This document shows positions 213-57,810 of a stretch of 64,000 nucleotides of DNA, in pieces. Source of the DNA: Tissierellia bacterium (GTDB lineage: Bacteria; Bacillota; Clostridia; Tissierellales; Peptoniphilaceae); assembly GCA_030537855.1 (NCBI GenBank), contig JAUNVD010000002.1:19745-83744 (forward strand), read 5' to 3'. The notes under the pieces are model-generated. The model saw only the letters and a program-made list of their open reading frames with translations, ran no database searches and was not told the origin of the DNA. How positions within the stretch are numbered: position 1 is the stretch's first letter; every line of letters starts with the position of its first letter. The position numbers were made by a program, and so were the translations under genes.

Positions 213-767
213 ATGAGTCTATTTGATTTAATCGAGAGAAAACGTAGAGAAGCAGAAAGACAAAGAAGAGTGGATGCTGCTAGTAAAGTTGTATTGGGAA
301 CAATTTTAGGTGCAACTGCAGGAATTCTTTTAGCTCCAAAATCTGGGGAGGAAACTAGAGCTGATATTCAGGAAAAATCCAAAGAACTTGCTCAAAAGGG
401 TACTGAAGTAGCAAAAGACACTGCTGAAACCATTCAATATAAGGCATATGAAGCTGGAGAGGCCGTTAAAAATACTTATGATGATTTAAAGCTTCGTGCA
501 GCGATTAAAAAAGACGAAGTAAAAGATGATATTGAGATTGCAAAGGCTAAAGCGGATGCTATTGGTGAAATTGTTCGAGATAGTGGCAAAGAAGTAAAAG
601 AACAGTTAAAAGCTACTGGGGCAGAAGTGAAAGATGCTGCTAAAGATGTGAAAGACCAAGCAAAAGATTCAGCAAAAGAAGTAAAGGACCAAGCAAAAGA
701 GTCAGCTGAAAAAATTGGGAAAGAAGTAAAAGAATCTGAAGAAAAGATAGAAAAAGAAGTAAAGTAA
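213..767 (+). CDS. YtxH-domain stress-type protein with K/E-rich 11-residue repeats
   Basis: RBS GGAGAG upstream. The N-terminal motif GTILGATAGILLAPKSGEETRADI is typical of the YtxH family. The C-terminal half is charged 11-mer repeats. Confidence 0.8.
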   Translation: MSLFDLIERKRREAERQRRVDAASKVVLGTILGATAGILLAPKSGEETRADIQEKSKELAQKGTEVAKDTAETIQYKAYEAGEAVKNTYDDLKLRAAIKKDEVKDDIEIAKAKADAIGEIVRDSGKEVKEQLKATGAEVKDAAKDVKDQAKDSAKEVKDQAKESAEKIGKEVKESEEKIEKEVK

Positions 768-788
768 ACCCTTTGAAAGAGTGATGAA

Positions 789-1283
789 ATGGATACGACG
801 ATTACGTTACATGAACTATTTAAGATTCTACTATATTTAGCTGGAATAGGTGCGTTAATTTACCTAGCTTTGGTGTTGAAGAATTTAGTAAAAATTACTG
901 GCACTGTAAAGGATATGTTAGAGGCAAATGAAGTTGCTATTGATGATACGATGAAGAAAGTACCGGATATTGCAAATAATGCAACTAAGATTTCTGCTGA
1001 TGTAGCAGTGATTACTGGTGAAGCTACTCATTTAGTAAATGAAGTAAAGCCGGAAGTGGAAAAATTAGTAGCCACTGTTGGAAATGTTTCTAATACTGTG
1101 GATGGTATTTCCCAAAAGGTTGATAGCACTGCATTAAGGGTTTCTGATACAGTGGTTGATATTTCCGATAGTATTTCGGATACTGCAAAGACCATCTCCA
1201 TTAATGCAAATAATGTGGTGGATTATTTTTACATTTTACGAGAAGTTATTGAAGCAATAAGAGATGTTTTTTTGTCTAAGTAA
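789..1283 (+). CDS. DUF948-like membrane-anchored protein
   Basis: One N-terminal TM helix (ILLYLAGIGALIYLALVL) followed by a helical region. It pairs with a ytxH-type gene, as is common in Firmicutes. Confidence 0.6.
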   Translation: MDTTITLHELFKILLYLAGIGALIYLALVLKNLVKITGTVKDMLEANEVAIDDTMKKVPDIANNATKISADVAVITGEATHLVNEVKPEVEKLVATVGNVSNTVDGISQKVDSTALRVSDTVVDISDSISDTAKTISINANNVVDYFYILREVIEAIRDVFLSK

Positions 1284-1377: not shown

Positions 1378-2265
1378 ATGAAAAAGGTGAAAATAATCGC
1401 CAATCCCACCTCTGGTAGAGAGTATTCTCTTTTAAAAGTAAATCAATTAATCAATTATATGTCTGAAGATCCATGGGATATTCACCTTCTCTTTACTCAT
1501 AAACGAGGGGATGGGATAGAATATGCCAAACATTATCATGGAGAAGATTTGATTGTTTGTTGTGGAGGGGATGGAACCTTAAATGAAGTGGTCAATGGTA
1601 TCTATCAATCTGGAAGAGATACTCCTCTAGCAATTTTACCAAGTGGTACAGTTAATGACTTTGGTACATATTTAGATTTGCCTCAAGATGCAAAGTCTTT
1701 TTATAAATTATTGTGCCGAAATCATAAAATCCACGTAGACATGGGGTTGGCAGGTGATCGAGCATTTATTAATGTAGCTGCAGGAGGACTTTTGACAGAA
1801 GTTGCCTATACGGTAAGTGAAGATTCAAAAGCTGTCCTTGGTCGTATAGCGTACTATGTTGAAGGAGCAAAGGAGATTTTAGGTAGTATTGGTCGTCCCC
1901 GAGAAGGTGTTGAACTTGAGGTTACTGTAGACGATAAGGTATTTTCTGTAAATGCTACTTTGTTTATTATTGCCAATTCCACTTCTGTAGGAGGGTTTAA
2001 GAATTTAGCTCCAACTGCAGAAATTCATGATGGTTTAATGGATGTTATAATCTTAAAAAATGTGGAACTTAATGAAGCTTTAGAAATACTAGGTTCTTTT
2101 ACACTAGGAAAACATATCCATCATGACAAGGTCATTTATATTCAAACAGATGAAATTTCTATAAAAAGTGATCGTCCATTAATCGTTGATGTGGACGGAG
2201 AAAAAACCGGAGAGTTACCAATGACATTTCGAGTCGTAAAGAATGCATTAACCTTATTAATTTAA
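1378..2265 (+). CDS. diacylglycerol kinase-family lipid kinase (YegS/DagK-like)
   Basis: RBS AGGAGGAG. GGDGTLNEVVNG catalytic-domain motif. Typical length of 295 aa. Confidence 0.85.
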   Translation: MKKVKIIANPTSGREYSLLKVNQLINYMSEDPWDIHLLFTHKRGDGIEYAKHYHGEDLIVCCGGDGTLNEVVNGIYQSGRDTPLAILPSGTVNDFGTYLDLPQDAKSFYKLLCRNHKIHVDMGLAGDRAFINVAAGGLLTEVAYTVSEDSKAVLGRIAYYVEGAKEILGSIGRPREGVELEVTVDDKVFSVNATLFIIANSTSVGGFKNLAPTAEIHDGLMDVIILKNVELNEALEILGSFTLGKHIHHDKVIYIQTDEISIKSDRPLIVDVDGEKTGELPMTFRVVKNALTLLI

Positions 2266-50156: not shown

Positions 50157-51398
50157 ATGTTTCCCGTCATTCTTGGAACAGATATTAATGCTTATGGAGT
50201 GGCAAGAAGCTTTCATGAAGCATATGGTGTCAAAAGCTTATGTATTGGGAGAAAGGCATTAAGATATACTAGATCTTCTAAGATTTTAGAGGTTATGGTT
50301 ATATCTAATTTTGATGAAGATACTGTTTTTTTAAAAACTTTAAAGGAAATTGGAGAAAAATATAAAGAACAAAAATTACTGCTGATTTCTTGTGGAGATG
50401 GGTATACTTCTTTAATGGCTAAGTATGAGAATGAGTTAAAAGACTTGTTTTCTTTTAATATTGTGACCAATCAGCAACAACAAGAACTGGAAAATAAAAT
50501 TGACTTTTATAAAATATGTGAACAATATGGTTTAGATTATCCAGAAACTCTTCTAATTTCTAAAGAAATGGTTGAGAAAAAAGTATCTTTACCTTTTGAA
50601 TATCCTGTGGCTCTTAAACCTAATGACAGCATTTCCTACTTGGATTTAAATTTTCCTGGAAAGAAAAAGGCCTATAAAATAGAAACGGAAGAAGAGTTAA
50701 ATAAAGTGTTACAAGACATATATAAAAGTGGATATAAAGATTATATGATTGCACAGGATTTTATCCCTGGAGATTCGGATACGATGGCTGTTTTAAATGC
50801 TTATGTAAATCGTAAAGGAAAGGTTAAGATGATGTGTCTAGGTCAATGTTTACTAGATGCTGTTTTACCTGCTGAAATTGGAAATTATAATGCTTTAGTT
50901 ACAGTTGATGGTGAAAAGATTTACCCTCAATATCAAAAGTTCTTAGAGGATTATGGATATCGAGGATTTGCAAATTTTGATTTAAAATATGATATCAGAG
51001 ATGGTAAGTATAAAGTTTTTGAAATCAATATTCGTCAAGGACGTAGCTCTTATTATATGACAGCAGGGGGTTGTAATTTTACGAAATTTTTAGTTGATGA
51101 TTTGGTGGAAAAAAAGGATGAACCTGTTTATTATCATAAAAAGCGAGGACTATGGCTCTATGTAGATCCTTATGTGTTAAAAAAATATGTACCTAGGAGT
51201 ATCTTTCCTATGGCAAAAGCAGAATTAAAAAGGGGTTTTGCTTTTACACAATGGTATGAGAAGGATCGTAATTTTACTCGTTTTCTAGATTATATCCGAA
51301 GGAGATTAAGTTCTATTAAAATTTATCATTATTATGGAAAGAAATCTTCAGGAAGTGTCGGTGGGGAAATGATAGGAAGAACTGGAGAAAAAAGATGA
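50157..51398 (+). CDS. ATP-grasp-domain protein (carboxylate-amine ligase type), substrate unknown
   Basis: ATP-grasp-like segments (YPVALKPN, FANFDLKYD, FEINIRQGRS). Confidence 0.6.
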   Translation: MFPVILGTDINAYGVARSFHEAYGVKSLCIGRKALRYTRSSKILEVMVISNFDEDTVFLKTLKEIGEKYKEQKLLLISCGDGYTSLMAKYENELKDLFSFNIVTNQQQQELENKIDFYKICEQYGLDYPETLLISKEMVEKKVSLPFEYPVALKPNDSISYLDLNFPGKKKAYKIETEEELNKVLQDIYKSGYKDYMIAQDFIPGDSDTMAVLNAYVNRKGKVKMMCLGQCLLDAVLPAEIGNYNALVTVDGEKIYPQYQKFLEDYGYRGFANFDLKYDIRDGKYKVFEINIRQGRSSYYMTAGGCNFTKFLVDDLVEKKDEPVYYHKKRGLWLYVDPYVLKKYVPRSIFPMAKAELKRGFAFTQWYEKDRNFTRFLDYIRRRLSSIKIYHYYGKKSSGSVGGEMIGRTGEKR

Positions 51399-52492
51399 AA
51401 AAAATAATACTACTACTTATGATACTATTGTCTTTGGTGGCTTGTTCTAGTGAAGAGCCTTTAGATATGTACCAAGGACAGTTTTATGAATGTTTTGACA
51501 CTGTTACTTCCGTATCAATTCCTGCAACTTCCGAGGAAGAAGCCCAAGAAAAAATAGACAAAATACAAAAAAGATATGAAGAACTTCATCAACTATACGA
51601 TAAATACCATGAATATCCTGGAATCGTAAATATTAAAACGATTAATGAAAAAGGTCATAAGGAACCAGTGAAAGTTGAAAAGGATTTATTGGATTTGTTG
51701 ATTTTTTCAAAGGAGAACTACAAAAATATTTCAAAGAAAGTGGATATTTCTAAAGGAGCTTTATTAGAGGTTTGGAGCGACTATCGTGATGGTCATGAGG
51801 CTGGATTGGATTTTGAAGGAGAGGAACAAAGAAAAGATAGAAAACCTGAGTTACCTCCAATGGAAGAGTTGGAAAAAGTCGGTTCTTATGGAAGTATGGA
51901 GAATTTAATCATTGATGAAAAAAACTCCACAGTATTTTTAAAAGATCCTAATATGAAACTAGATGTTGGAGCAGTGGCGAAAGGTTTTGCTACAGAAATT
52001 GTTGCTCGAGAATTGGAAAAACAAGGAGAAGACCATATTATACTAAGTGCAGGAGGGAATGTCCGACTAATTGGAAACCCACTAGATCCAAATAAGAAAC
52101 GATTTGTTATTGGATTACAAAATCCAGAAGTTTTAACCGATGATGGAACAGGCTCTAATATCTTAGATGTTGTATATGCAAATGATGTGTCCATTGTTAG
52201 TTCTGGGGATTATCAAAGATACTATGAGGTAGATGGAAAAATTTATCATCATATTATTGATATGGAGACATTATATCCTGGGGATTACTTTAGGGGCGTT
52301 TCTGTTGTAACAAAGGACTCGGGAATAGCAGATTTTCTATCCACTGCCGTTTTTCTTATGCCCTATGAAGAAGGAAAGGCGTTAATAGACTCCTTGCCAG
52401 ATACAGAAGCATATTGGATTTTTGATGATATGTCTGTAAAATATACAGATGGTATGGGACCAATGTTACGTAGTCAAGGAGCAACCAATTAA
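51395..52492 (+). CDS. apbE: FAD:protein FMN transferase (ApbE family) lipoprotein
   Basis: Lipobox LVAC. ApbE motifs GAVAKGFATE and SSGDYQRY. The start overlaps the upstream stop (ATGA). Confidence 0.8.
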   Translation: MKKIILLLMILLSLVACSSEEPLDMYQGQFYECFDTVTSVSIPATSEEEAQEKIDKIQKRYEELHQLYDKYHEYPGIVNIKTINEKGHKEPVKVEKDLLDLLIFSKENYKNISKKVDISKGALLEVWSDYRDGHEAGLDFEGEEQRKDRKPELPPMEELEKVGSYGSMENLIIDEKNSTVFLKDPNMKLDVGAVAKGFATEIVARELEKQGEDHIILSAGGNVRLIGNPLDPNKKRFVIGLQNPEVLTDDGTGSNILDVVYANDVSIVSSGDYQRYYEVDGKIYHHIIDMETLYPGDYFRGVSVVTKDSGIADFLSTAVFLMPYEEGKALIDSLPDTEAYWIFDDMSVKYTDGMGPMLRSQGATN

Positions 52493-52501
52493 GGAGTTTT
52501 T

Positions 52502-53002
52502 ATGTTAAAGAATAATATTTTAGGTTGTATCGGTCAAGTTATTCTTGTTTTGCTGACCTTTCTATTTATAAGTCTGATACATATGGGAGAAGGATTGTCT
52601 CAATTTTTCTACTCTGGATTTATAGGAAAGATTTTTTTTATTTTAGTTCCAGCACTATACTATTGGCTTTTTGGAAAATTAATGAGTCGTAGTACAGGTT
52701 GGGCTGGATTGCTTTTTCCTGGACTGAGTATTTTTGGGATTTCCCTTATTCTTGGATTTATTGGATTTTCTGCTTTAGGTAGTCAGTGGATAAACTTGTC
52801 CGTTGGTGAATCTATGTGGAGATTCCCCTTAGAAGTGTTTTTACTGCCACAATATATACTTGCAACTTTATGGAATTTACCTAAAGAAGAATATACTTTG
52901 TTGATTCTTTCTTGTGTCCCTGGGTTAATTTATACCATTAGTTTACTTGGAGGTAGACATAAAATTCGTCAAAGACGGAAAAGAAGGGGAGAGTATCTAT
53001 GA
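52502..53002 (+). CDS. hypothetical integral membrane protein (166 aa)
   Basis: About 5 TM segments and RBS AAGGAG. I recognise no family. Confidence 0.55.
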   Translation: MLKNNILGCIGQVILVLLTFLFISLIHMGEGLSQFFYSGFIGKIFFILVPALYYWLFGKLMSRSTGWAGLLFPGLSIFGISLILGFIGFSALGSQWINLSVGESMWRFPLEVFLLPQYILATLWNLPKEEYTLLILSCVPGLIYTISLLGGRHKIRQRRKRRGEYL

Positions 53003-53526
53003 AAAGTAAGGGAAATTACTTTATTCTTTTTTTAATCCTGGTTCTTACTACTTGGGTGAGCTTACATGGAAAAGGAAATTATGAAAGTGTTAGAATTACC
53101 AGAGTGATTGACGGAGATACCGTAGTTGTGGATAACAATGAAAAGGTACGTATTATCGGAATGAATACCCCAGAAGTAGGAAAAAGAACGGAGCCTTATG
53201 GGGAGGAAGCAAAGGAATTTGCAACTCATATATTATTGGGAAAGGATGTTTACCTGGAAAAGGATGTTTCTGATAGAGATAAGTATGGGCGTTTGCTCCG
53301 TCATATTTGGTTAAAGGATCCAAAAAAAGGGATATTGGAAGAGGATAATTATGGAGCCATTGCTTTAAAAGAAGGATATGCTCAAGTATATACTTTTCCA
53401 CCAGATGTTAAATATGAAAAAAAGTATTTGGAAATTTCTCGTAAAGCAAGGGAAGAAAGGAAAGGTCTTTGGGGAATCAATATTAATGGAACCACCAGGG
53501 GTGAAGTTCCTGGAGGTCAGTTTTAG
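52999..53526 (+). CDS. thermonuclease (staphylococcal nuclease-like), membrane-anchored or secreted
   Basis: SNase motifs (VIDGDTVVV, VRIIGMNTPE, YGEEAKEF, DKYGRLLRHIW) and an N-terminal hydrophobic anchor. Confidence 0.8.
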   Translation: MKSKGNYFILFLILVLTTWVSLHGKGNYESVRITRVIDGDTVVVDNNEKVRIIGMNTPEVGKRTEPYGEEAKEFATHILLGKDVYLEKDVSDRDKYGRLLRHIWLKDPKKGILEEDNYGAIALKEGYAQVYTFPPDVKYEKKYLEISRKAREERKGLWGININGTTRGEVPGGQF

Positions 53527-53534
53527 GAGGAAAT

Positions 53535-54068
53535 ATGTATAGTTATAATATGGATGAATTGAATAAACAAGCCATTGCTGGTTTAAAAAGTAAAGGGGTA
53601 GAACTTCACGATATTGCAAAATTAGTTTACTTTTTACAAGAACGTTATATGGAACATTTGACGATGGAACGATGTTTAGAAAATGTAGAAGCTGTTTTAA
53701 GAAAACGAGAAGTTATTCACGCAGTATTAACAGGTCTTGCCATTGATGAAGTAGCAAATAAAAAATTACTTCCTGAGCCCTTACAAAGCATTGTAGAAAA
53801 TGATGAAGGCTTATATGGGATAGATGAAGTACTTCCTTTAGGAATTGTTAATATATATGGAACCATTGGTCTAACAAATTTTGGATACTTAGATAAGGAA
53901 AAGGTAGGAATTATCAAAGATCTAGATGAACGAAAGGGAAATGAAGTGACTACCTTTACAGATGATTTAGTAGCTGCAATAGCAGCAGCTGCTGCTTCAC
54001 GTCTTTCGCACCAGAATTATGAGGAAGAATGGGGTACTAAGGATGTAAAACGAAAGATAGATGAATAA
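53535..54068 (+). CDS. phosphatidylglycerophosphatase A-family protein (YutG-like)
   Basis: REVIHAVLTGLAIDEVANKKLLPEPLQ ... LYGIDEVLPLGIVNIYGTIGLTNFGYLDKEK resembles Bacillus subtilis YutG as I recall it. Confidence 0.6.
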   Translation: MYSYNMDELNKQAIAGLKSKGVELHDIAKLVYFLQERYMEHLTMERCLENVEAVLRKREVIHAVLTGLAIDEVANKKLLPEPLQSIVENDEGLYGIDEVLPLGIVNIYGTIGLTNFGYLDKEKVGIIKDLDERKGNEVTTFTDDLVAAIAAAAASRLSHQNYEEEWGTKDVKRKIDE

Positions 54069-54480: not shown

Positions 54481-55986
54481 ATGTTGTTGAAAGAAAGTTA
54501 TATGAGTATTATGAATATTCGTAGGAGAGTATTCTCTGAAGTTGCAAGAATCGCATACGAGGATTCTGATTTAGAAGAGTTAGAAGATGCTTCTTATCGA
54601 TTGTTTCCAGGGGAAGTAGCAACGGTTAGAGAAAATATTTTCCGAGAAAGGGCTATTGCTGAAGAAATGTTACGTTTAGCTATGGGTCTGGATATTCGTG
54701 AAGTCTCTACATATAAAAAAGTAACAGATGGTTTTGATAAAATTAATATTGCAGAAAATGCTTATGAAGAACCTTTAGTATCTGTAATAAAATTTGCTTG
54801 TGAATCTTGTCCTACAAGGGCTTTTTATGTAACGAATAATTGTCGAAAATGTATGGCTCATCCTTGTACTAATGTTTGTCCAGTAAATGCAGTAAGTATT
54901 GGAAAATTTGGAGCTATTATAGATGAAGAAAAATGTGTAAAATGTGGACGTTGCAAAAATACTTGTCCTTATAATGCTATTGTGGAGTATGAAAGACCTT
55001 GTGCTTCAGTTTGCGGGGTAAATGCTATAGAAGATGATGAAGTGGGCAGGGCTGTGATCAATCACGACAAATGTGTGGCTTGTGGTCGTTGTATTACCCA
55101 ATGTCCCTTTGGAGCAATTGCTGATAAAACACAAATTTACCAATTAGTAAAAGCATTGGTGAGTAAAAAGAAAATATATGCTATTATAGCCCCTTCTTTT
55201 ATTGGACAATTCGGTGCTTTAACAACTCCTGTTCAAGTTGCAGAAGCTATTAAACTATTAGGATTTGAAGATGTGGTAGAAGTAGGGCTTGGAGCAGATA
55301 TGACTACCTTACATGAAGCAAAAGAGTATTTAGAGAGAGTCCCTGCAGAAATACCATTTATGGGAACTAGTTGTTGTTATTCTTGGTCATTGATGATTGA
55401 GTATAATTTTCCTGAATTACATCCTTATATTTCAGACTCTGGTTCTCCTATGAAATACACCGCAGAATATATTAAAGAAAAAGATCCAGATGCTTATGTA
55501 ACATTTATTGGACCATGTACATCTAAGAAGTTAGAAGCTATAGATACTAAAGTACAAGGGTATGTAGATTTTGTGATAACCTTTGAAGAACTAATGGGTA
55601 TGTTTGTAGCCAAAGGAATCGAACCTTCAGAAATAGAAGTCACGAAAGAAATGGAAGATGCATCATCTTCTGCAAGGGGCTATGCAATGGCAGGTGGAGT
55701 TGCAGAGGCAGTGGCTGAAGTTGCAAAAAAAATAGCACCAGATCGAGAGATTAAAATTGAAGGGGCGAATTCCCTTGATGAATGTATGAAAATGTTAAAA
55801 TTAGCAAAAGCTGGAAGAAAAGACGGTTATCTCTTAGAAGGAATGGCTTGTCCTGGTGGATGTATAGCAGGAGTGGGAACCATTGCTTCCACAACAAGAG
55901 TCAAAAGGGCATTAAGTAAATATATGAAAGATTCTGAATATAAGACACCTTTTGAGAATATTCATATCCCTGAAAGTTTAAAATAA
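54481..55986 (+). CDS. [FeFe]-hydrogenase-family protein with N-terminal multi-[4Fe-4S] domain
   Basis: H-cluster signatures TSCCYSW, GPCTSKK and EGMACPGGCIAG, plus several CxxCxxCxxxCP motifs. The exact start is ambiguous because GGGAGGG abuts ATG 54481; TTG 54487 is possible. Confidence 0.85.
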   Translation: MLLKESYMSIMNIRRRVFSEVARIAYEDSDLEELEDASYRLFPGEVATVRENIFRERAIAEEMLRLAMGLDIREVSTYKKVTDGFDKINIAENAYEEPLVSVIKFACESCPTRAFYVTNNCRKCMAHPCTNVCPVNAVSIGKFGAIIDEEKCVKCGRCKNTCPYNAIVEYERPCASVCGVNAIEDDEVGRAVINHDKCVACGRCITQCPFGAIADKTQIYQLVKALVSKKKIYAIIAPSFIGQFGALTTPVQVAEAIKLLGFEDVVEVGLGADMTTLHEAKEYLERVPAEIPFMGTSCCYSWSLMIEYNFPELHPYISDSGSPMKYTAEYIKEKDPDAYVTFIGPCTSKKLEAIDTKVQGYVDFVITFEELMGMFVAKGIEPSEIEVTKEMEDASSSARGYAMAGGVAEAVAEVAKKIAPDREIKIEGANSLDECMKMLKLAKAGRKDGYLLEGMACPGGCIAGVGTIASTTRVKRALSKYMKDSEYKTPFENIHIPESLK

Positions 55987-56098
55987 AGTTAAAAAACTAA
56001 GAATAATAAGACCTCCAAAAAAGAAAGTTTTATCCTTTCAAATTAGACTTTCTCCTTGGGGGTCTTTTTATGGTATACTTGGAAAAGGAGGAAATAGT

Positions 56099-57040
56099 AT
56101 GAATAAATTTGCCCCATATGATTATTCTTCATTTCAATTTTCCTGTGAAGGGACACATAAATCATGTCATCCAGTGAACTACCAATTGGAGCATAATCCT
56201 ACCCCTATCAAGTTATCTAGCGAAATGACTGAAGCGATAGAATATTTATTATGGTATGTTCCAAATATTAATTCCTTACAATCAAAATCGAATCCTTTAG
56301 TGGAAAAGATTCTCTATGATGATTTTACTTTTGATTTAATAAGAAAGGAAATGGAACTGACGACAGATGATATTTTAATTGAAGAGGAAATTCCTTTTGA
56401 TGTATACCGATATTTTAGGCATAAAATTTGTACCAATTGTCAAAAATTAGTACTAACAAGAGCAGAGGAAGAGACAAAATCAGCGTCACTACTTAGACAT
56501 ATTCGAAATGCCATTGCTCACGGTCTTTTTACCATAGTAGATGAAATGCTAATGGCCTTTGATTTTCGAAATATGGAAGATGCGAAAGAAGATAAGAACT
56601 GTACAGCAATTATTAAAATAAGACCTCGTTCATTATTACAAGCGTTAAAGAAAATAGATACAGAATTAACCCATGAACATTTAGCTGCAAAGGCCTTTCA
56701 AGAAGCTGGCTATTGTTTAAAACGAACAAAGTGGAAGGATAAGGGTCTTCCCTATGACTTTGAAGTGGAAAAAGAAGGACGTTTCTATGGGGTGGAAATA
56801 AAAAAATTTGATACTCCCTTACATATGGAACCGATAGAAGTAAAAAAAGTTATTAAGGGATTTGAACATATTAAGGATATTCCCTTAGTATTATTAAGTG
56901 ATTCTTCCTATCTAAAAAAGGAAAGTAAACAATTGTTAAAAACACTACCAATCACTATTTTAGATATGGAAAATATTGAAGATTTACTCCAAGGGCATGA
57001 TGTTTTAAAATCTATTGAAAAAGGTGGAAATAAATCTTGA
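56099..57040 (+). CDS. uncharacterised protein with HEPN-like R-x4-H motif and C-terminal PD-(D/E)xK-like module
   Basis: RBS AGGAGG. LLRHIRNAIAHG at aa 131-142. YDFEVEKEGRFYGVEIKK at aa 219-236 gives D220 ... E233-x-K235. Confidence 0.55.
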   Translation: MNKFAPYDYSSFQFSCEGTHKSCHPVNYQLEHNPTPIKLSSEMTEAIEYLLWYVPNINSLQSKSNPLVEKILYDDFTFDLIRKEMELTTDDILIEEEIPFDVYRYFRHKICTNCQKLVLTRAEEETKSASLLRHIRNAIAHGLFTIVDEMLMAFDFRNMEDAKEDKNCTAIIKIRPRSLLQALKKIDTELTHEHLAAKAFQEAGYCLKRTKWKDKGLPYDFEVEKEGRFYGVEIKKFDTPLHMEPIEVKKVIKGFEHIKDIPLVLLSDSSYLKKESKQLLKTLPITILDMENIEDLLQGHDVLKSIEKGGNKS

Positions 57041-57076
57041 AGAGGCCTTTTTGCTGTGATATAATACCTTGAGTAA

Positions 57077-57154
57077 GCACTCGTAGCTCAGCCTGGATAG
57101 AGCAACGGACTTCGGATCCGTGTGTCAGGGGTTCGAATCCTCTCGGGTGCACCA
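57077..57154 (+). tRNA. tRNA-Arg (anticodon UCG), CCA encoded
   Basis: Hand-folded cloverleaf. Acceptor stem GCACTCG/CGGGTGC, D arm GCTC/GAGC, anticodon stem ACGGA/TCCGT with loop CTTCGGA, T arm AGGGG-TTCGAAT-CCTCT. Confidence 0.9.
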
Positions 57155-57157
57155 TAG

Positions 57158-57191
57158 AAACCCTGTAGTTGGTACAGGGTTTTGCTCTTTT
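57158..57191 (+). terminator. intrinsic terminator after the tRNA
   Basis: CCCTGTA / TACAGGG stem plus a T-rich tail. Confidence 0.7.
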
Positions 57192-57284
57192 AAGTCGATG
57201 GAAGCTGGGTTTACTCATCCTATTCCCAAGTTAGAGAAAATTGTATAAATTTAGAAAATATTCTGAATAATTCCTTTAACTTCC

Positions 57285-57314
57285 TTGACAGCTCTCTCGA
57301 CTATGTATTAAAAT
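57285..57314 (+). promoter_or_regulatory. sigma-A-type promoter of rplM-rpsI
   Basis: TTGACA - 18 nt - TAAAAT. The ~65-nt leader with hairpin AGTGTT...AACACT may be an L13-type leader. Confidence 0.45.
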
Positions 57315-57381
57315 AAAGTTTAGTGTTTAAGCCCCGGAAAATGAACACTGCTCAACAATCAAAGGATAGGAGGTCGCCTCA

Positions 57382-57810
57382 TTGAAAAGCTATATGGCGA
57401 AAGCAAATGAAATAGATAGAAAATGGTATGTTATCGATGCTGAAGGTAAAGTACTTGGACGTTTAGCGTCTGAAGTTGCAAAGATACTTAGAGGTAAACA
57501 TAAGGCAATTTATACCCCTCATGTTGACACTGGTGATTTTGTCATTATTGTCAATGCAGAAAAAATAGCATTAACAGGAAATAAATGGGATCAAAAAACA
57601 CATAATTATCATACAGGATATCCTGGTGGACGTAGAGAAGTACCCTATAAACAGTTATTGGCAAAACATCCTGAAAGAATTATCGAATTAGCGGTAAAAG
57701 GAATGCTACCAAAAAATAGTTTAGGTCGACAAATGTATCGTAAATTAAAAGTATATGCAGGTCCTGAGCATCCACATGAAGCTCAACAACCTGTAGCATA
57801 TGAAATTTAA
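57382..57810 (+). CDS. rplM: 50S ribosomal protein L13
   Basis: [17 protein letters not shown] is typical of L13. TTG start 8 nt after AGGAGG. Confidence 0.95.

What the first reader, a model, noticed from the sequence alone, without database searches (positions are those of the whole stretch)
56099..57040. Isolated HEPN-like plus PD-(D/E)xK-like protein next to tRNA-Arg: candidate single-gene defence or toxin module
The 313-aa protein has no family that I recognise, but it carries two nuclease-type signatures. LLRHIRNAIAHG (R136-x4-H141, nt 56504-56521) matches the R-x4-6-H motif of HEPN RNases, in its most common RN..(A)H form and after a predicted helix. The C-terminal third then has a helix (AAKAFQEAGY) followed by YDFEVEKEGRFYGVEIKK. 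That gives D220 ... E233-x-K235 (nt 56756-56803), the spacing expected of a PD-(D/E)xK restriction-endonuclease fold core. The N-terminal 120 aa contain C16/C23-H24 and C111-x2-C114, a possible Zn site. The gene is monocistronic, with its own RBS and a hairpin upstream. It is wedged between a hydrogenase operon and a tRNA gene 36 nt downstream, and tRNA loci are classic landing sites for accessory genes. HEPN/nuclease fusions are recurrent in abortive-infection and toxin systems. I see no antitoxin or partner gene here, which is unusual if the protein is active.
Basis: partly seen in the sequence, partly recalled or inferred. Interest (0 to 1): 0.6.

Follow-up and report, generated by a model that had tools for sequence, protein, structure and literature searches.

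The report
Lineage-fixed HEPN RNase–Mrr nuclease fusion
The gene encodes a real two-nuclease protein (an RNA-cutting HEPN domain fused to a restriction-enzyme-like domain), but it is an old, vertically inherited, single-copy gene of one group of Peptoniphilaceae bacteria, not a mobile defence gene that landed beside a tRNA.

Summary
ORF 56099-57040 (+) encodes the 313-aa protein, every motif coordinate is correct, and tRNA-Arg(TCG) starts 36 nt downstream.

The domain guesses are also right:
- Residues ~40-190 are a pEK499_p136-type (PF18736) HEPN domain. hhalign against genuine members gives 97.5% probability, E 8e-12. R136 and H141 are the only invariant columns in 90 homologues.
- Residues ~192-310 are an Mrr/AF1548-type PD-(D/E)xK domain. 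The AlphaFold model has pLDDT 92 and Foldseek matches it at probability 1.0. D220/E233/K235 align to the catalytic triad, which is intact in 74/90 homologues.
- A likely metal site uses C16/H32/C111/C114, not C23/H24.

The "accessory gene at a tRNA landing site" reading fails:
- The gene is single-copy in 19 of 20 species across three genera, and its tree follows taxonomy.
- dN/dS is 0.04-0.12, and composition is native.
- Neighbours are housekeeping genes, stable within each genus.
- It is absent from phages, plasmids, viral contigs and PADLOC.
- The tRNA is next to it only in the window and its closest relative.
- No partner gene is conserved.

My best reading is a lineage-specific stand-alone nuclease whose essential activity is the HEPN RNase. 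It was probably domesticated for a cellular RNA/DNA-processing or stress role. A chromosomally fixed immune nuclease remains a serious rival. Interest is moderate.

The parts
56045..56065 (+). Terminator-like hairpin plus T-run ending the upstream [FeFe]-hydrogenase-like gene.
   Evidence: sequence
56088..56092 (+). Ribosome-binding site GGAGG, 7 nt before the ATG
   Evidence: sequence
56099..57040 (+). HEPN-Mrr fusion gene, 313 aa (P0001)
56144..56440 (+). Codons of the putative Cys/His metal site: C16 (56144-56146), H32 (56192-56194), C111 (56429-56431), C114 (56438-56440). The family-wide pattern CC...H...CxxC is present in 57/90 homologues.
56216..56668 (+). pEK499_p136-type HEPN domain, residues ~40-190. 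Helices at 41-52, 66-84, 127-140 and 176-188. Insert 85-126 lies between helices 2 and 3. A beta-hairpin at 144-156 follows the motif.
56504..56521 (+). Catalytic Rx4H dyad, R136-N137-A-I-A-H141, at the C-terminal end of helix 3. R and H are the only invariant columns in 90 homologues.
56672..57028 (+). Mrr/AF1548-type PD-(D/E)xK domain, residues ~192-310. Core order alpha192-202, beta206-210, beta221-225, beta228-235, alpha245-253, beta263-267.
56756..56803 (+). D220 ... E233-x-K235 catalytic triad of the REase fold
   Evidence: canonical or conservatively substituted in 74/90 homologues, broken in 16/90
57037..57065 (+). Promoter-like site TTGAAG-17-TATAAT with a TG extension, overlapping the ORF's 3' end and placed to drive the tRNA
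   Evidence: consensus match only
57077..57154 (+). tRNA-Arg(TCG), the only copy found in this draft genome. A recent neighbour of the gene, not its ancestral landing site.
57157..57183 (+). Terminator-like hairpin after the tRNA

Best explanation
The gene encodes a stand-alone two-domain nuclease.

SHOWN (by computation):
- Residues ~40-190 are a HEPN domain of the pEK499_p136 (PF18736) clade.
- Residues ~192-310 are an Mrr/AF1548-type PD-(D/E)xK domain with an intact D220/E233/K235 triad.
- A conserved Cys/His cluster (C16, H32, C111, C114) is contributed by the N-terminal tail and the helix-2/helix-3 insert.
- The gene is single-copy, under strong purifying selection, and vertically inherited within one subclade of Peptoniphilaceae (Peptoniphilus, Aedoeadaptatus, Urinicoccus, Anaerococcus and allied MAGs).
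- Its neighbours are housekeeping genes, it has no conserved partner gene, and it is never found on mobile elements.
- The tRNA-Arg neighbour is a recent local acquisition.

INFERRED:
- Like other HEPN enzymes, the protein probably dimerises so that two Rx4H motifs form a metal-independent RNase site that leaves 2',3'-cyclic phosphate ends.
- The RNase is the indispensable activity (R/H kept in 90/90 homologues).
- The Mrr-like domain binds nucleic acid and, in most members, also cleaves it (triad kept in 74/90). It would target or gate the RNase.
- The Cys/His cluster is probably a structural Zn site.
- With no antitoxin present, activity must be restrained by substrate specificity or by intramolecular or oligomeric gating.
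- Biological role: I put about 50% on a module of conflict-system type that was domesticated for a non-essential cellular job (RNA processing or decay, or a stress or repair nuclease). I put about 30% on a chromosomally fixed immune nuclease.
For: Domains:
- Pfam gives sub-threshold PF18736 and Mrr_cat hits exactly where predicted. Among 90 homologues, 52 hit PF18736 and 23 hit Mrr_cat, best 3.4e-9.
- hhalign of residues 1-192 against 13 genuine PF18736 proteins gives 97.5% probability, E 8e-12. The C-terminal control gives 0.3%. The global alignment gives 97%.
- The AlphaFold2 model has pLDDT 92.2 and pTM 0.87.
- Foldseek matches AF1548, MspJI, FokI, NucS and Hjc at probability 1.0, and viral 'restriction endonuclease/Mrr' models.
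- A profile search against PDB sequences aligns D...ExK to AF1548 and Hjc.
- R136 and H141 are the only invariant columns.

Evolution:
- The gene occurs in 36/121 family genomes, always as one copy, and in 4/4, 5/5 and 10/11 species within three genera.
- The gene tree follows taxonomy. Anaerococcus is monophyletic with 30 rows and support 99.
- Contexts are genus-stable and consist of housekeeping genes.
- dN/dS is 0.04-0.12 in both domains. Divergence is similar to the ApbE and 2Fe-2S neighbours.
- GC content and codon usage are native.
- There is no match in phages, plasmids, PHROGs, IMG/VR or PADLOC.
- The gene has no paralogue in its own genome.
- A tRNA lies beside the gene only in the window and L093, not in L094 or in any of the 80 other loci.
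Against: - No biochemical data exist for this family or for PF18736, and no PF18736 structure is solved.
- This protein's own Pfam scores fall below both curated cut-offs: 21.9 against 26.6 bits for PF18736, and 15.7 against 21 bits for Mrr_cat.
- The four-helix packing of the N-terminal domain could not be checked by fold search.
- Both domain families are overwhelmingly linked to conflict systems (PMC3710099).
- The gene is absent from 38 of 56 genera of the family and was cleanly lost in one Aedoeadaptatus species. It is therefore dispensable, which also fits a defence gene.
- No expression data could be obtained.
- Nothing identifies a cellular substrate.
Confidence: 0.55

Rival explanations
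1. A chromosomally fixed, self-contained immune nuclease. The Mrr-like domain would sense or cut foreign (for example modified) DNA, as type IV restriction enzymes do. The HEPN RNase would act as a second, abortive-infection-type effector. The gene became fixed in this lineage instead of cycling through defence islands.
For: - PF18736 and Mrr_cat are typical conflict-system domains. HEPN-REase fusions and HEPN genes in R-M operons are recurrent (PMC3710099).
- A genuine PF18736 gene in L096 sits behind a small PD-(D/E)xK-like ORF.
- The HEPN module occurs alone or with other C-terminal regions in distant relatives, which is modular shuffling typical of defence proteins.
- The gene is dispensable: it is absent from two thirds of the family's genera and was lost in one species.
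Against: - There is no patchiness within genera (19/20 species), and the phylogeny is congruent with taxonomy.
- Across 80 loci there are no defence, R-M, integrase or mobile-element neighbours.
- Purifying selection is strong and uniform, with no fast-evolving segment.
- The gene is not in PADLOC, phages, plasmids or viral contigs.
- No methyltransferase or antitoxin partner is present.
Confidence: 0.3
2. A solitary toxin of a degenerate toxin-antitoxin or abortive-infection pair, delivered as cargo next to a tRNA gene.
For: - HEPN toxins are common in TA and Abi systems (PMC3710099).
- A tRNA gene lies 36 nt downstream.
- The 65% homologue has a Fic-domain gene just upstream.
Against: - No neighbour is conserved across genera, so there is no antitoxin candidate.
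- tRNA adjacency exists only in the window and L093.
- The 'empty site' (hydrogenase gene abutting rplM) and the syntenic rplM-adjacent position across genera show a chromosomal gene, not an integrated island.
- Composition is native.
- Long-term vertical descent under purifying selection.
Confidence: 0.05
3. A DNA-repair or recombination nuclease (Hjc/NucS/RecU-like structure-specific endonuclease), in which the HEPN-like domain has become a non-catalytic regulatory or nucleic-acid-binding module.
For: - Foldseek and profile hits include Hjc, NucS/EndoMS and Bax1. Hjc Pfam hits occur in 6/90 members.
- The gene shows housekeeping-type evolution.
Against: - The HEPN R/H dyad is invariant while the REase triad is broken in 16/90 members. 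That is the opposite of what is expected if the REase site were the essential one.
- The hits to resolvases reflect the shared fold at 11-17% identity, not family membership.
Confidence: 0.1

Closest known systems
pEK499_p136 HEPN family (Pfam PF18736; Anantharaman et al. 2013, PMC3710099)
   Same: - It shares the extended motif (I/L)RH(I/L)RN(A/S)I(A/S)H, followed by a beta-hairpin and a strand. hhalign gives 97.5% probability, E 8e-12.
- A PNI..S...Q.K.N element before helix 2 also lines up.
- Both are predicted metal-independent RNases.
   Different: - Genuine members are ~150-190-aa stand-alone proteins. They are rare (2 of 401 Bacillota genomes) and are described as occurring with R-M, ART, Macro and NamA-like genes.
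- The window protein scores below Pfam's cut-off, carries a Cys/His insert, and is fused to an Mrr domain.
- It is vertically inherited among housekeeping genes.
Mrr / AF1548-type PD-(D/E)xK domain (Pfam PF04471 Mrr_cat; PDB 1Y88; type IV restriction enzymes such as MspJI)
   Same: - It has the alpha-beta-beta-beta-alpha-beta core, with D...ExK on beta2/beta3.
- Foldseek gives probability 1.0. The profile alignment places the catalytic residues on those of AF1548.
   Different: - It has no winged-helix or SRA-type DNA-reading domain and no McrB-like partner.
- Its N-terminal partner is an RNase domain.
- The triad is lost in about 18% of family representatives.
- It is not strain-variable like typical type IV enzymes.
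Other HEPN-REase fusions (DUF4145-REase; EC042_2821 wHTH-HEPN-REase-ZnR) catalogued in PMC3710099
   Same: One polypeptide combines a HEPN RNase with a restriction-endonuclease-fold domain, sometimes with a Zn module.
   Different: - Those belong to different HEPN clades and lie in R-M operons or defence contexts.
- None is reported as a lineage-core gene.
- PF18736 was not listed there as fused to REase.
Housekeeping HEPN RNases (eukaryotic Las1 in ITS2 rRNA processing, Swt1; discussed in PMC3710099)
   Same: They are precedents for HEPN nucleases recruited to cellular RNA processing and inherited vertically.
   Different: - There is no detectable specific relationship, and the partners differ (Grc3 kinase for Las1).
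- The analogy is functional only and was not tested here.
Cdn1 / Can2 / Card1 (CARF + PD-(D/E)xK CRISPR ancillary nucleases; PDB 8Z4I, PMC12825302)
   Same: - Cdn1 is the best Foldseek hit (E 3.3e-4) through the nuclease domain.
- It shows that this fold can cleave ssRNA and be gated by a fused N-terminal domain and by dimerisation.
   Different: - There is no CARF domain and no CRISPR locus here.
- Identity is 9-12%.
- The N-terminal domain here is a catalytic HEPN domain, not a ligand sensor.

Membership tests
HEPN superfamily, pEK499_p136 clade (PF18736) | Rx4-6H motif with a polar residue (N/D/H) right after R, conserved across the family | tested here: met
   R136-N137-x3-H141. R and H are present in 90/90 homologues and N137 in 88/90.
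HEPN superfamily, pEK499_p136 clade (PF18736) | Significant profile match to the family | tested here: met
   hhalign against 13 genuine members gives 97.5% probability, E 8e-12, with a control at 0.3%. However, the single-sequence Pfam score of 21.9 bits is below the curated 26.6-bit cut-off, so Pfam itself would not annotate this protein.
HEPN superfamily, pEK499_p136 clade (PF18736) | [quoted passage not shown] | tested here: inconclusive
   The model's secondary structure fits. Helices lie at 41-52, 66-84, 127-140 and 176-188, the motif is at 136-141, and the insert is at 85-126. The 3D packing could not be compared with HEPN structures because the fold-search lists were dominated by the C-terminal domain.
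HEPN superfamily, pEK499_p136 clade (PF18736) | Metal-independent RNase activity that depends on R and H | not testable with these tools
   Needs biochemistry.
Mrr_cat / PD-(D/E)xK restriction-endonuclease fold (PF04471) | alpha-beta-beta-beta-alpha-beta core | tested here: met
   The high-confidence model shows H192-202, E206-210, E221-225, E228-235, H245-253, E263-267. Foldseek gives probability 1.0 to AF1548, MspJI and FokI.
Mrr_cat / PD-(D/E)xK restriction-endonuclease fold (PF04471) | Catalytic D ... (D/E)-x-K on beta2/beta3 | tested here: met
   D220, E233 and K235 align to AF1548 (IDVV...IECK) and Hjc. The family-wide triad is canonical or conservatively substituted in 74/90 homologues.
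Mrr_cat / PD-(D/E)xK restriction-endonuclease fold (PF04471) | Score above Pfam's curated cut-off | tested here: not met
   15.7 bits against a 21-bit cut-off for this protein. 23/90 relatives hit at E<=0.01, best 3.4e-9.
Type IV (modification-dependent) restriction enzyme | A DNA-modification-reading domain or McrB-type partner, and a strain-variable, defence-island distribution | tested here: not met
   No such domain or partner was found. The gene is near-universal within genera.
Toxin-antitoxin / abortive-infection module | A conserved adjacent antitoxin or partner gene | tested here: not met
   Clustering of neighbours in 80 loci shows no cluster that accompanies the gene across genera. 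The homologues of the candidate neighbours are unlinked in the window's own genome.
Known anti-phage defence systems (PADLOC-DB v2) | Match to a defence-protein model | tested here: not met
   Only a 12-bit, 22-residue match to RTasHEPN over the Rx4H motif.
tRNA-targeted genomic island cargo | Integrase or att repeats, foreign composition, presence/absence polymorphism at the tRNA, and tRNA adjacency shared by homologues | tested here: not met
   No tRNA lies within 6 kb in nearly all of the 80 loci, and none lies adjacent. tRNA-Arg sits beside the gene only in the window and L093. GC and codon usage are native. No integrase-like neighbour was found.

The most novel reading that the evidence does not exclude
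A nuclease pair of conflict-system type (PF18736 HEPN RNase plus Mrr DNase) has been domesticated in one Peptoniphilaceae subclade. It would act as a partner-less, vertically inherited cellular enzyme, for example a stress-gated tRNA/rRNA/mRNA endonuclease or an RNA-DNA hybrid processing enzyme. That would make it a bacterial counterpart of Las1-type HEPN domestication, and the first PF18736-clade protein with a defined cellular substrate.
Probability: 0.3. Interest if true: 0.6.

Novelty: new variant of a known kind. Interest (0 to 1): 0.38.

Why it matters
HEPN and Mrr-type domains are usually read as flags for mobile defence or toxin genes. Here the same pair behaves like a lineage-core gene. 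It is single-copy, congruent with taxonomy, under strong purifying selection, surrounded by housekeeping genes, and has no antitoxin.

That makes it a clean case for two questions:
- How is a potentially toxic RNase/DNase kept harmless without a partner?
- Can conflict-derived nucleases be recruited to cellular RNA or DNA metabolism in bacteria?

The PF18736 clade has no solved structure and no biochemistry, so this compact 313-aa protein, with a confident model, would be a convenient entry point. The carrier genera (Anaerococcus, Peptoniphilus) are common members of the human skin, gut and urogenital microbiota.

It is also a warning for automated 'defence gene' calls based on domain content and tRNA proximity alone.

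Tried and rejected
- **Single-sequence AlphaFold.** pLDDT was 39 and the model was useless. It cost one of the two structure jobs, so the N-terminal domain could not be folded or searched on its own.
- **Fold searches of the full model.** Only hits to the C-terminal domain appeared, and nothing informative for the HEPN half.
- **Profile and sequence searches against PDB.** No relative of the N-terminal domain or of PF18736 was found. The Hsp70 hits are chance matches.
- **Family libraries.** NCBIfam, PADLOC and PHROGs gave nothing meaningful.
- **Candidate functional links, rejected as incidental.** These were the macro-domain gene (Anaerococcus and the P. harei group), TadA (other Peptoniphilus), rplM-rpsI (Aedoeadaptatus clade) and tRNA-Arg. 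Each is specific to one clade, and all but rplM-rpsI and tRNA-Arg are unlinked in the window's genome.
- **'Fast-evolving gene'.** Rejected, because identity to relatives (41-51%) matches the ApbE and 2Fe-2S neighbours.
- **'Variable island upstream in Anaerococcus'.** Rejected, because those genes are sugar, polyamine and pentose-phosphate metabolism genes.
Rejected, because they are not conserved.
- **Literature.** Searches found no characterised HEPN-Mrr single-gene system.
Full report
**1. Observation**

The ORF at 56099-57040 (+) exists as described. It has an ATG start and a GGAGG 7 nt upstream, and it encodes 313 aa. All the quoted residues and nucleotide coordinates are correct: R136/H141 at 56504-56521 and D220...K235 at 56756-56803. 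ARAGORN and Rfam place tRNA-Arg(TCG) at 57077-57154, 36 nt after the stop codon.

The upstream gene (54481-55986) is a [FeFe]-hydrogenase-like protein. Fe_hyd_lg_C and 4Fe-4S domains are recorded for its orthologue in L093. It ends in a terminator-like hairpin at 56045-56065.

A promoter-like site for the tRNA (57037-57065) overlaps the end of the ORF, and a terminator follows the tRNA (57157-57183). No terminator separates the ORF from the tRNA, so 'monocistronic' is plausible but unproven.

**2. What the protein is**

PF18736 (HEPN pEK499_p136) matches residues 121-191 with E 1.5e-4. PF04471 (Mrr_cat) matches residues 193-297 with E 0.017. PADLOC, NCBIfam, PHROGs and PDB sequences add nothing.

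Homologues are few. The word-indexed search found 195. The exhaustive search found only 131 clusters at 50% identity among 1.84 billion representatives.

In a 90-sequence alignment spanning 23-72% identity, the only invariant columns are R136 and H141. N137, A140 and G142 are at or above 97%.

Across those 90 proteins, Pfam matches are as follows:

| Family | Members matching |
|---|---|
| PF18736 | 52 |
| Mrr_cat | 23 (best 3.4e-9) |
| Hjc | 6 |
| HEPN_RiboL-PSP | 5 |
| HEPN_MAE_28990 | 5 |

To test the HEPN call properly, I fetched genuine PF18736 genes from other Bacillota. They occur in only 2 of 401 genomes. I built a 13-sequence alignment from them. hhalign of residues 1-192 of our family against it gives 97.5% probability and E 8e-12. 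The match covers the Rx4H helix, the following beta-hairpin and the next strand. The C-terminal half, used as a control, gives 0.3%. A global alignment keeps 97% and also lines up VPNINSLQSKSN with NPNISLKEYIxxQKxKTN.

**3. Structure**

With the 90-sequence alignment, AlphaFold2 gives pLDDT 92.2 and pTM 0.87. The single-sequence run had failed with pLDDT 39.

The C-terminal domain has the alpha-beta-beta-beta-alpha-beta order of the PD-(D/E)xK fold. D220 sits at the start of beta2, and E233/K235 sit in beta3. Foldseek matches, at probability 1.0:
- AF1548 (1Y88)
- MspJI
- the FokI cleavage domain
- NucS/EndoMS
- Hjc
- the nuclease domains of Cdn1 and Can2
- many viral 'restriction endonuclease/Mrr' models

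A profile search against PDB sequences aligns D...E-x-K onto the catalytic residues of AF1548 and Hjc.

The N-terminal domain has four main helices: 41-52, 66-84, 127-140 and 176-188. Residues 85-126 form an insert between helices 2 and 3, and the Rx4H motif sits at the C-terminal end of helix 3. This is the placement the HEPN reference paper describes, and it also notes frequent helix-2/3 inserts and, in Csx1, a beta-hairpin right after the motif (PMC3710099).

C23 and H24 are not conserved. C16 (85/90), H32 (88/90), C111 (85/90) and C114 (75/90) are conserved. The dominant family pattern is CC...H...CxxC, seen in 57/90 homologues. The window protein keeps four of these ligands. Their spatial proximity is untested.

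**4. Asymmetry between the two active sites**

The HEPN dyad is kept in 90/90 homologues. The REase triad is canonical (D-E-K) in 61. It is conservatively substituted (D-D-K, D-E-R, E-D-K) in 13. It is broken in 16.

dN/dS on twelve close pairs is 0.04-0.12 overall. The HEPN part is slightly more constrained than the REase part: 0.03-0.12 against 0.05-0.20. The RNase site therefore looks indispensable. The REase domain may be catalytic in most members and only binding or scaffolding in some.

**5.

- **Distribution.** The gene is present in 36 of 121 genomes of its family (18 of 56 genera), always as one copy. Within the genera that have it, presence is almost universal: 4/4, 5/5 and 10/11 species.
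- **Beyond the family.** A profile search of 399 genomes of the class found full-length copies only in this family, plus one outlier MAG. The other hits covered single domains.
- **Named carriers.** These are Peptoniphilus, Aedoeadaptatus, Urinicoccus, Ndiopella, Anaerococcus and Tissierellia MAGs.
- **Gene tree.** It follows taxonomy. Anaerococcus forms one clade (30 rows, SH-aLRT 99), and so do Urinicoccus and the Aedoeadaptatus group.
- **Context.** It is stable within each clade and made of ordinary genes, as shown below.

| Clade | Gene order around the gene (T) |
|---|---|
| Aedoeadaptatus / Urinicoccus / Ndiopella | rpsI-rplM, divergent from T |
| P. harei group | PBP1A, macro, NhaC, T, DUF1294 |
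| Other Peptoniphilus | LytD-like, RpoN, T, TadA |
| Anaerococcus | macro, (WrbA), T, membrane protein, two-component system |

- **Apparent variable runs.** The unclustered genes upstream in some Anaerococcus loci are Ula/PTS, transketolase, polyamine-transport and similar genes.
- **No mobile or defence neighbours.** No integrase, R-M, defence gene or conserved partner appears anywhere.
- **Not on mobile elements.** The gene is not found in 50,697 phage records, 72,556 plasmids or IMG/VR contigs.
- **Composition.** GC is 31.7% against 34.5% for the window. GC3 and codon usage are within the range of its neighbours.
- **Rate.** Its identity to relatives is 41-51%. That is like ApbE (44-55%) and the 2Fe-2S protein (38-49%), so it is not unusually fast-evolving.

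**6. The tRNA**

Among the homologous loci, a tRNA sits next to the gene only in the window and in its 72% relative L093. L093 has the same order: hydrogenase gene, the gene, tRNA-Arg(TCG), rplM. The 65% relative L094 has Fic, the gene, rplM and no tRNA.

In the next clade out, the gene is adjacent to rplM but inverted, again with no tRNA. One related genome without the gene has the hydrogenase gene abutting rplM directly, an 'empty site' (L106). More distant genera have the classical truA-rplM-rpsI order.

One Aedoeadaptatus species has lost the gene cleanly. Homology to its 95%-identical relatives stops about 105 bp upstream of rplM.

The tRNA therefore arrived next to an already resident gene, not the other way round. 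The gene is near-core but dispensable.

**7. Mechanism**

The architecture, the conservation pattern and the evolutionary behaviour are shown. The rest follows from established knowledge of HEPN enzymes (PMC3710099). They are metal-independent RNases, their R and H are catalytic, and the active site is typically formed across a dimer. The products carry 2',3'-cyclic phosphate.

I infer three things:
- The RNase is the essential activity.
- The Mrr-like domain supplies nucleic-acid binding and usually a second, metal-dependent nuclease site. The Cdn1 precedent shows this fold can also cut ssRNA and be gated by a fused domain (PMC12825302).
- With no antitoxin, the enzyme is restrained by substrate specificity or by intramolecular or oligomeric gating. 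The Cys/His cluster probably acts as a structural Zn site.

For the biological role, the evolutionary evidence favours a domesticated cellular function (about 50%) over a fixed immune nuclease (about 30%).

**8. Comparison and novelty**

The protein is a divergent member of the PF18736 HEPN clade fused to an Mrr_cat domain. HEPN-REase fusions are known as a kind for other HEPN clades (PMC3710099). A genuine PF18736 gene in L096 has a small PD-(D/E)xK-like ORF just upstream, so there the two modules are split between separate genes.

Three things are new:
- this particular fusion, with its Cys/His insert
- its restriction to one Peptoniphilaceae subclade
- its core-gene-like behaviour

No paper in the library describes it. 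Public records call it 'hypothetical protein' or 'restriction endonuclease'. I rate it a new variant of a known kind, of moderate interest.

**9. Limits**

There is no biochemistry and no expression data. There is no 3D check of the HEPN bundle and no strain-level pangenomes. The best-explanation confidence of 0.55 mainly reflects uncertainty about the biological role. I hold the domain architecture and the vertical, non-mobile status at about 0.9 each.

Noticed in passing
L096:569-1938: A genuine PF18736 HEPN gene (1387..1938, 36.5 bits) is preceded by a 133-aa ORF (569..970) with a PD-(D/E)xK-like DLIAEKNDEKWIIEAK motif. This looks like a split-gene version of the window's HEPN-REase fusion.
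   Followed up: partly
window 56099-57810; L093, L094, L013-L029: The gene is inverted in place between clades. It is divergent from rplM in Aedoeadaptatus, Urinicoccus and Ndiopella, and co-directional in the window and its two closest relatives. tRNA-Arg(TCG) lies between the gene and rplM only in the window and L093.
   Followed up: yes
L106 (G014:C22): An 'empty site': the hydrogenase-like gene abuts rplM directly, with a gap of about 115 bp and no HEPN-Mrr gene or tRNA. More distant genera have truA-rplM-rpsI.
   Followed up: partly
L105 (G123:C10) 864-1500: The only Aedoeadaptatus species lacking the gene has 637 bp with no ORF of 90 aa or more upstream of rplM. Homology to its 95%-identical relatives stops about 105 bp before rplM, which indicates a recent loss or replacement. 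I did not identify the replacing sequence.
   Followed up: partly
L094:4984-5802: A Fic-domain gene lies immediately upstream of, and co-directional with, the 65% homologue. It is absent from the window and from other loci.
   Followed up: no
L030-L092 (clusters c2 and c20): A macro-domain gene is often just upstream of the homologue in Anaerococcus and two genes away in the P. harei group. A TadA-like tRNA adenosine deaminase gene is immediately downstream in 10 Peptoniphilus loci. Both are on other contigs in the window's genome (C80, C88), so I read them as incidental. The reference paper does mention Macro/ART associations for PF18736.
   Followed up: partly
P0186, P0200, P0231, P0193, P0201: The N-terminal HEPN module (residues ~25-185) also occurs alone, as ~170-aa proteins. 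It also occurs joined to unrelated C-terminal regions of 230-450 aa with no Pfam match. Their taxonomy and contexts are unknown.
   Followed up: partly
L066 / L099 and L083: Two long-branch full-length homologues sit in MAGs labelled 'Clostridia bacterium' and 'Erysipelotrichaceae bacterium' (GTDB family f149 for G597). This could be rare transfer, mis-binning or misclassification.
   Followed up: partly
whole genome G000: ARAGORN finds only 21 tRNA genes in the 130-contig draft. The tRNA complement is incomplete, so 'single-copy tRNA-Arg(TCG)' is provisional.
   Followed up: no
window 51395-54068; L093 1300-4005: The cluster ApbE, membrane protein, SNase-type nuclease and PgpA upstream of the hydrogenase-like gene is conserved in order in L093 and partly in Aedoeadaptatus, Urinicoccus and Ndiopella.
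   Followed up: no
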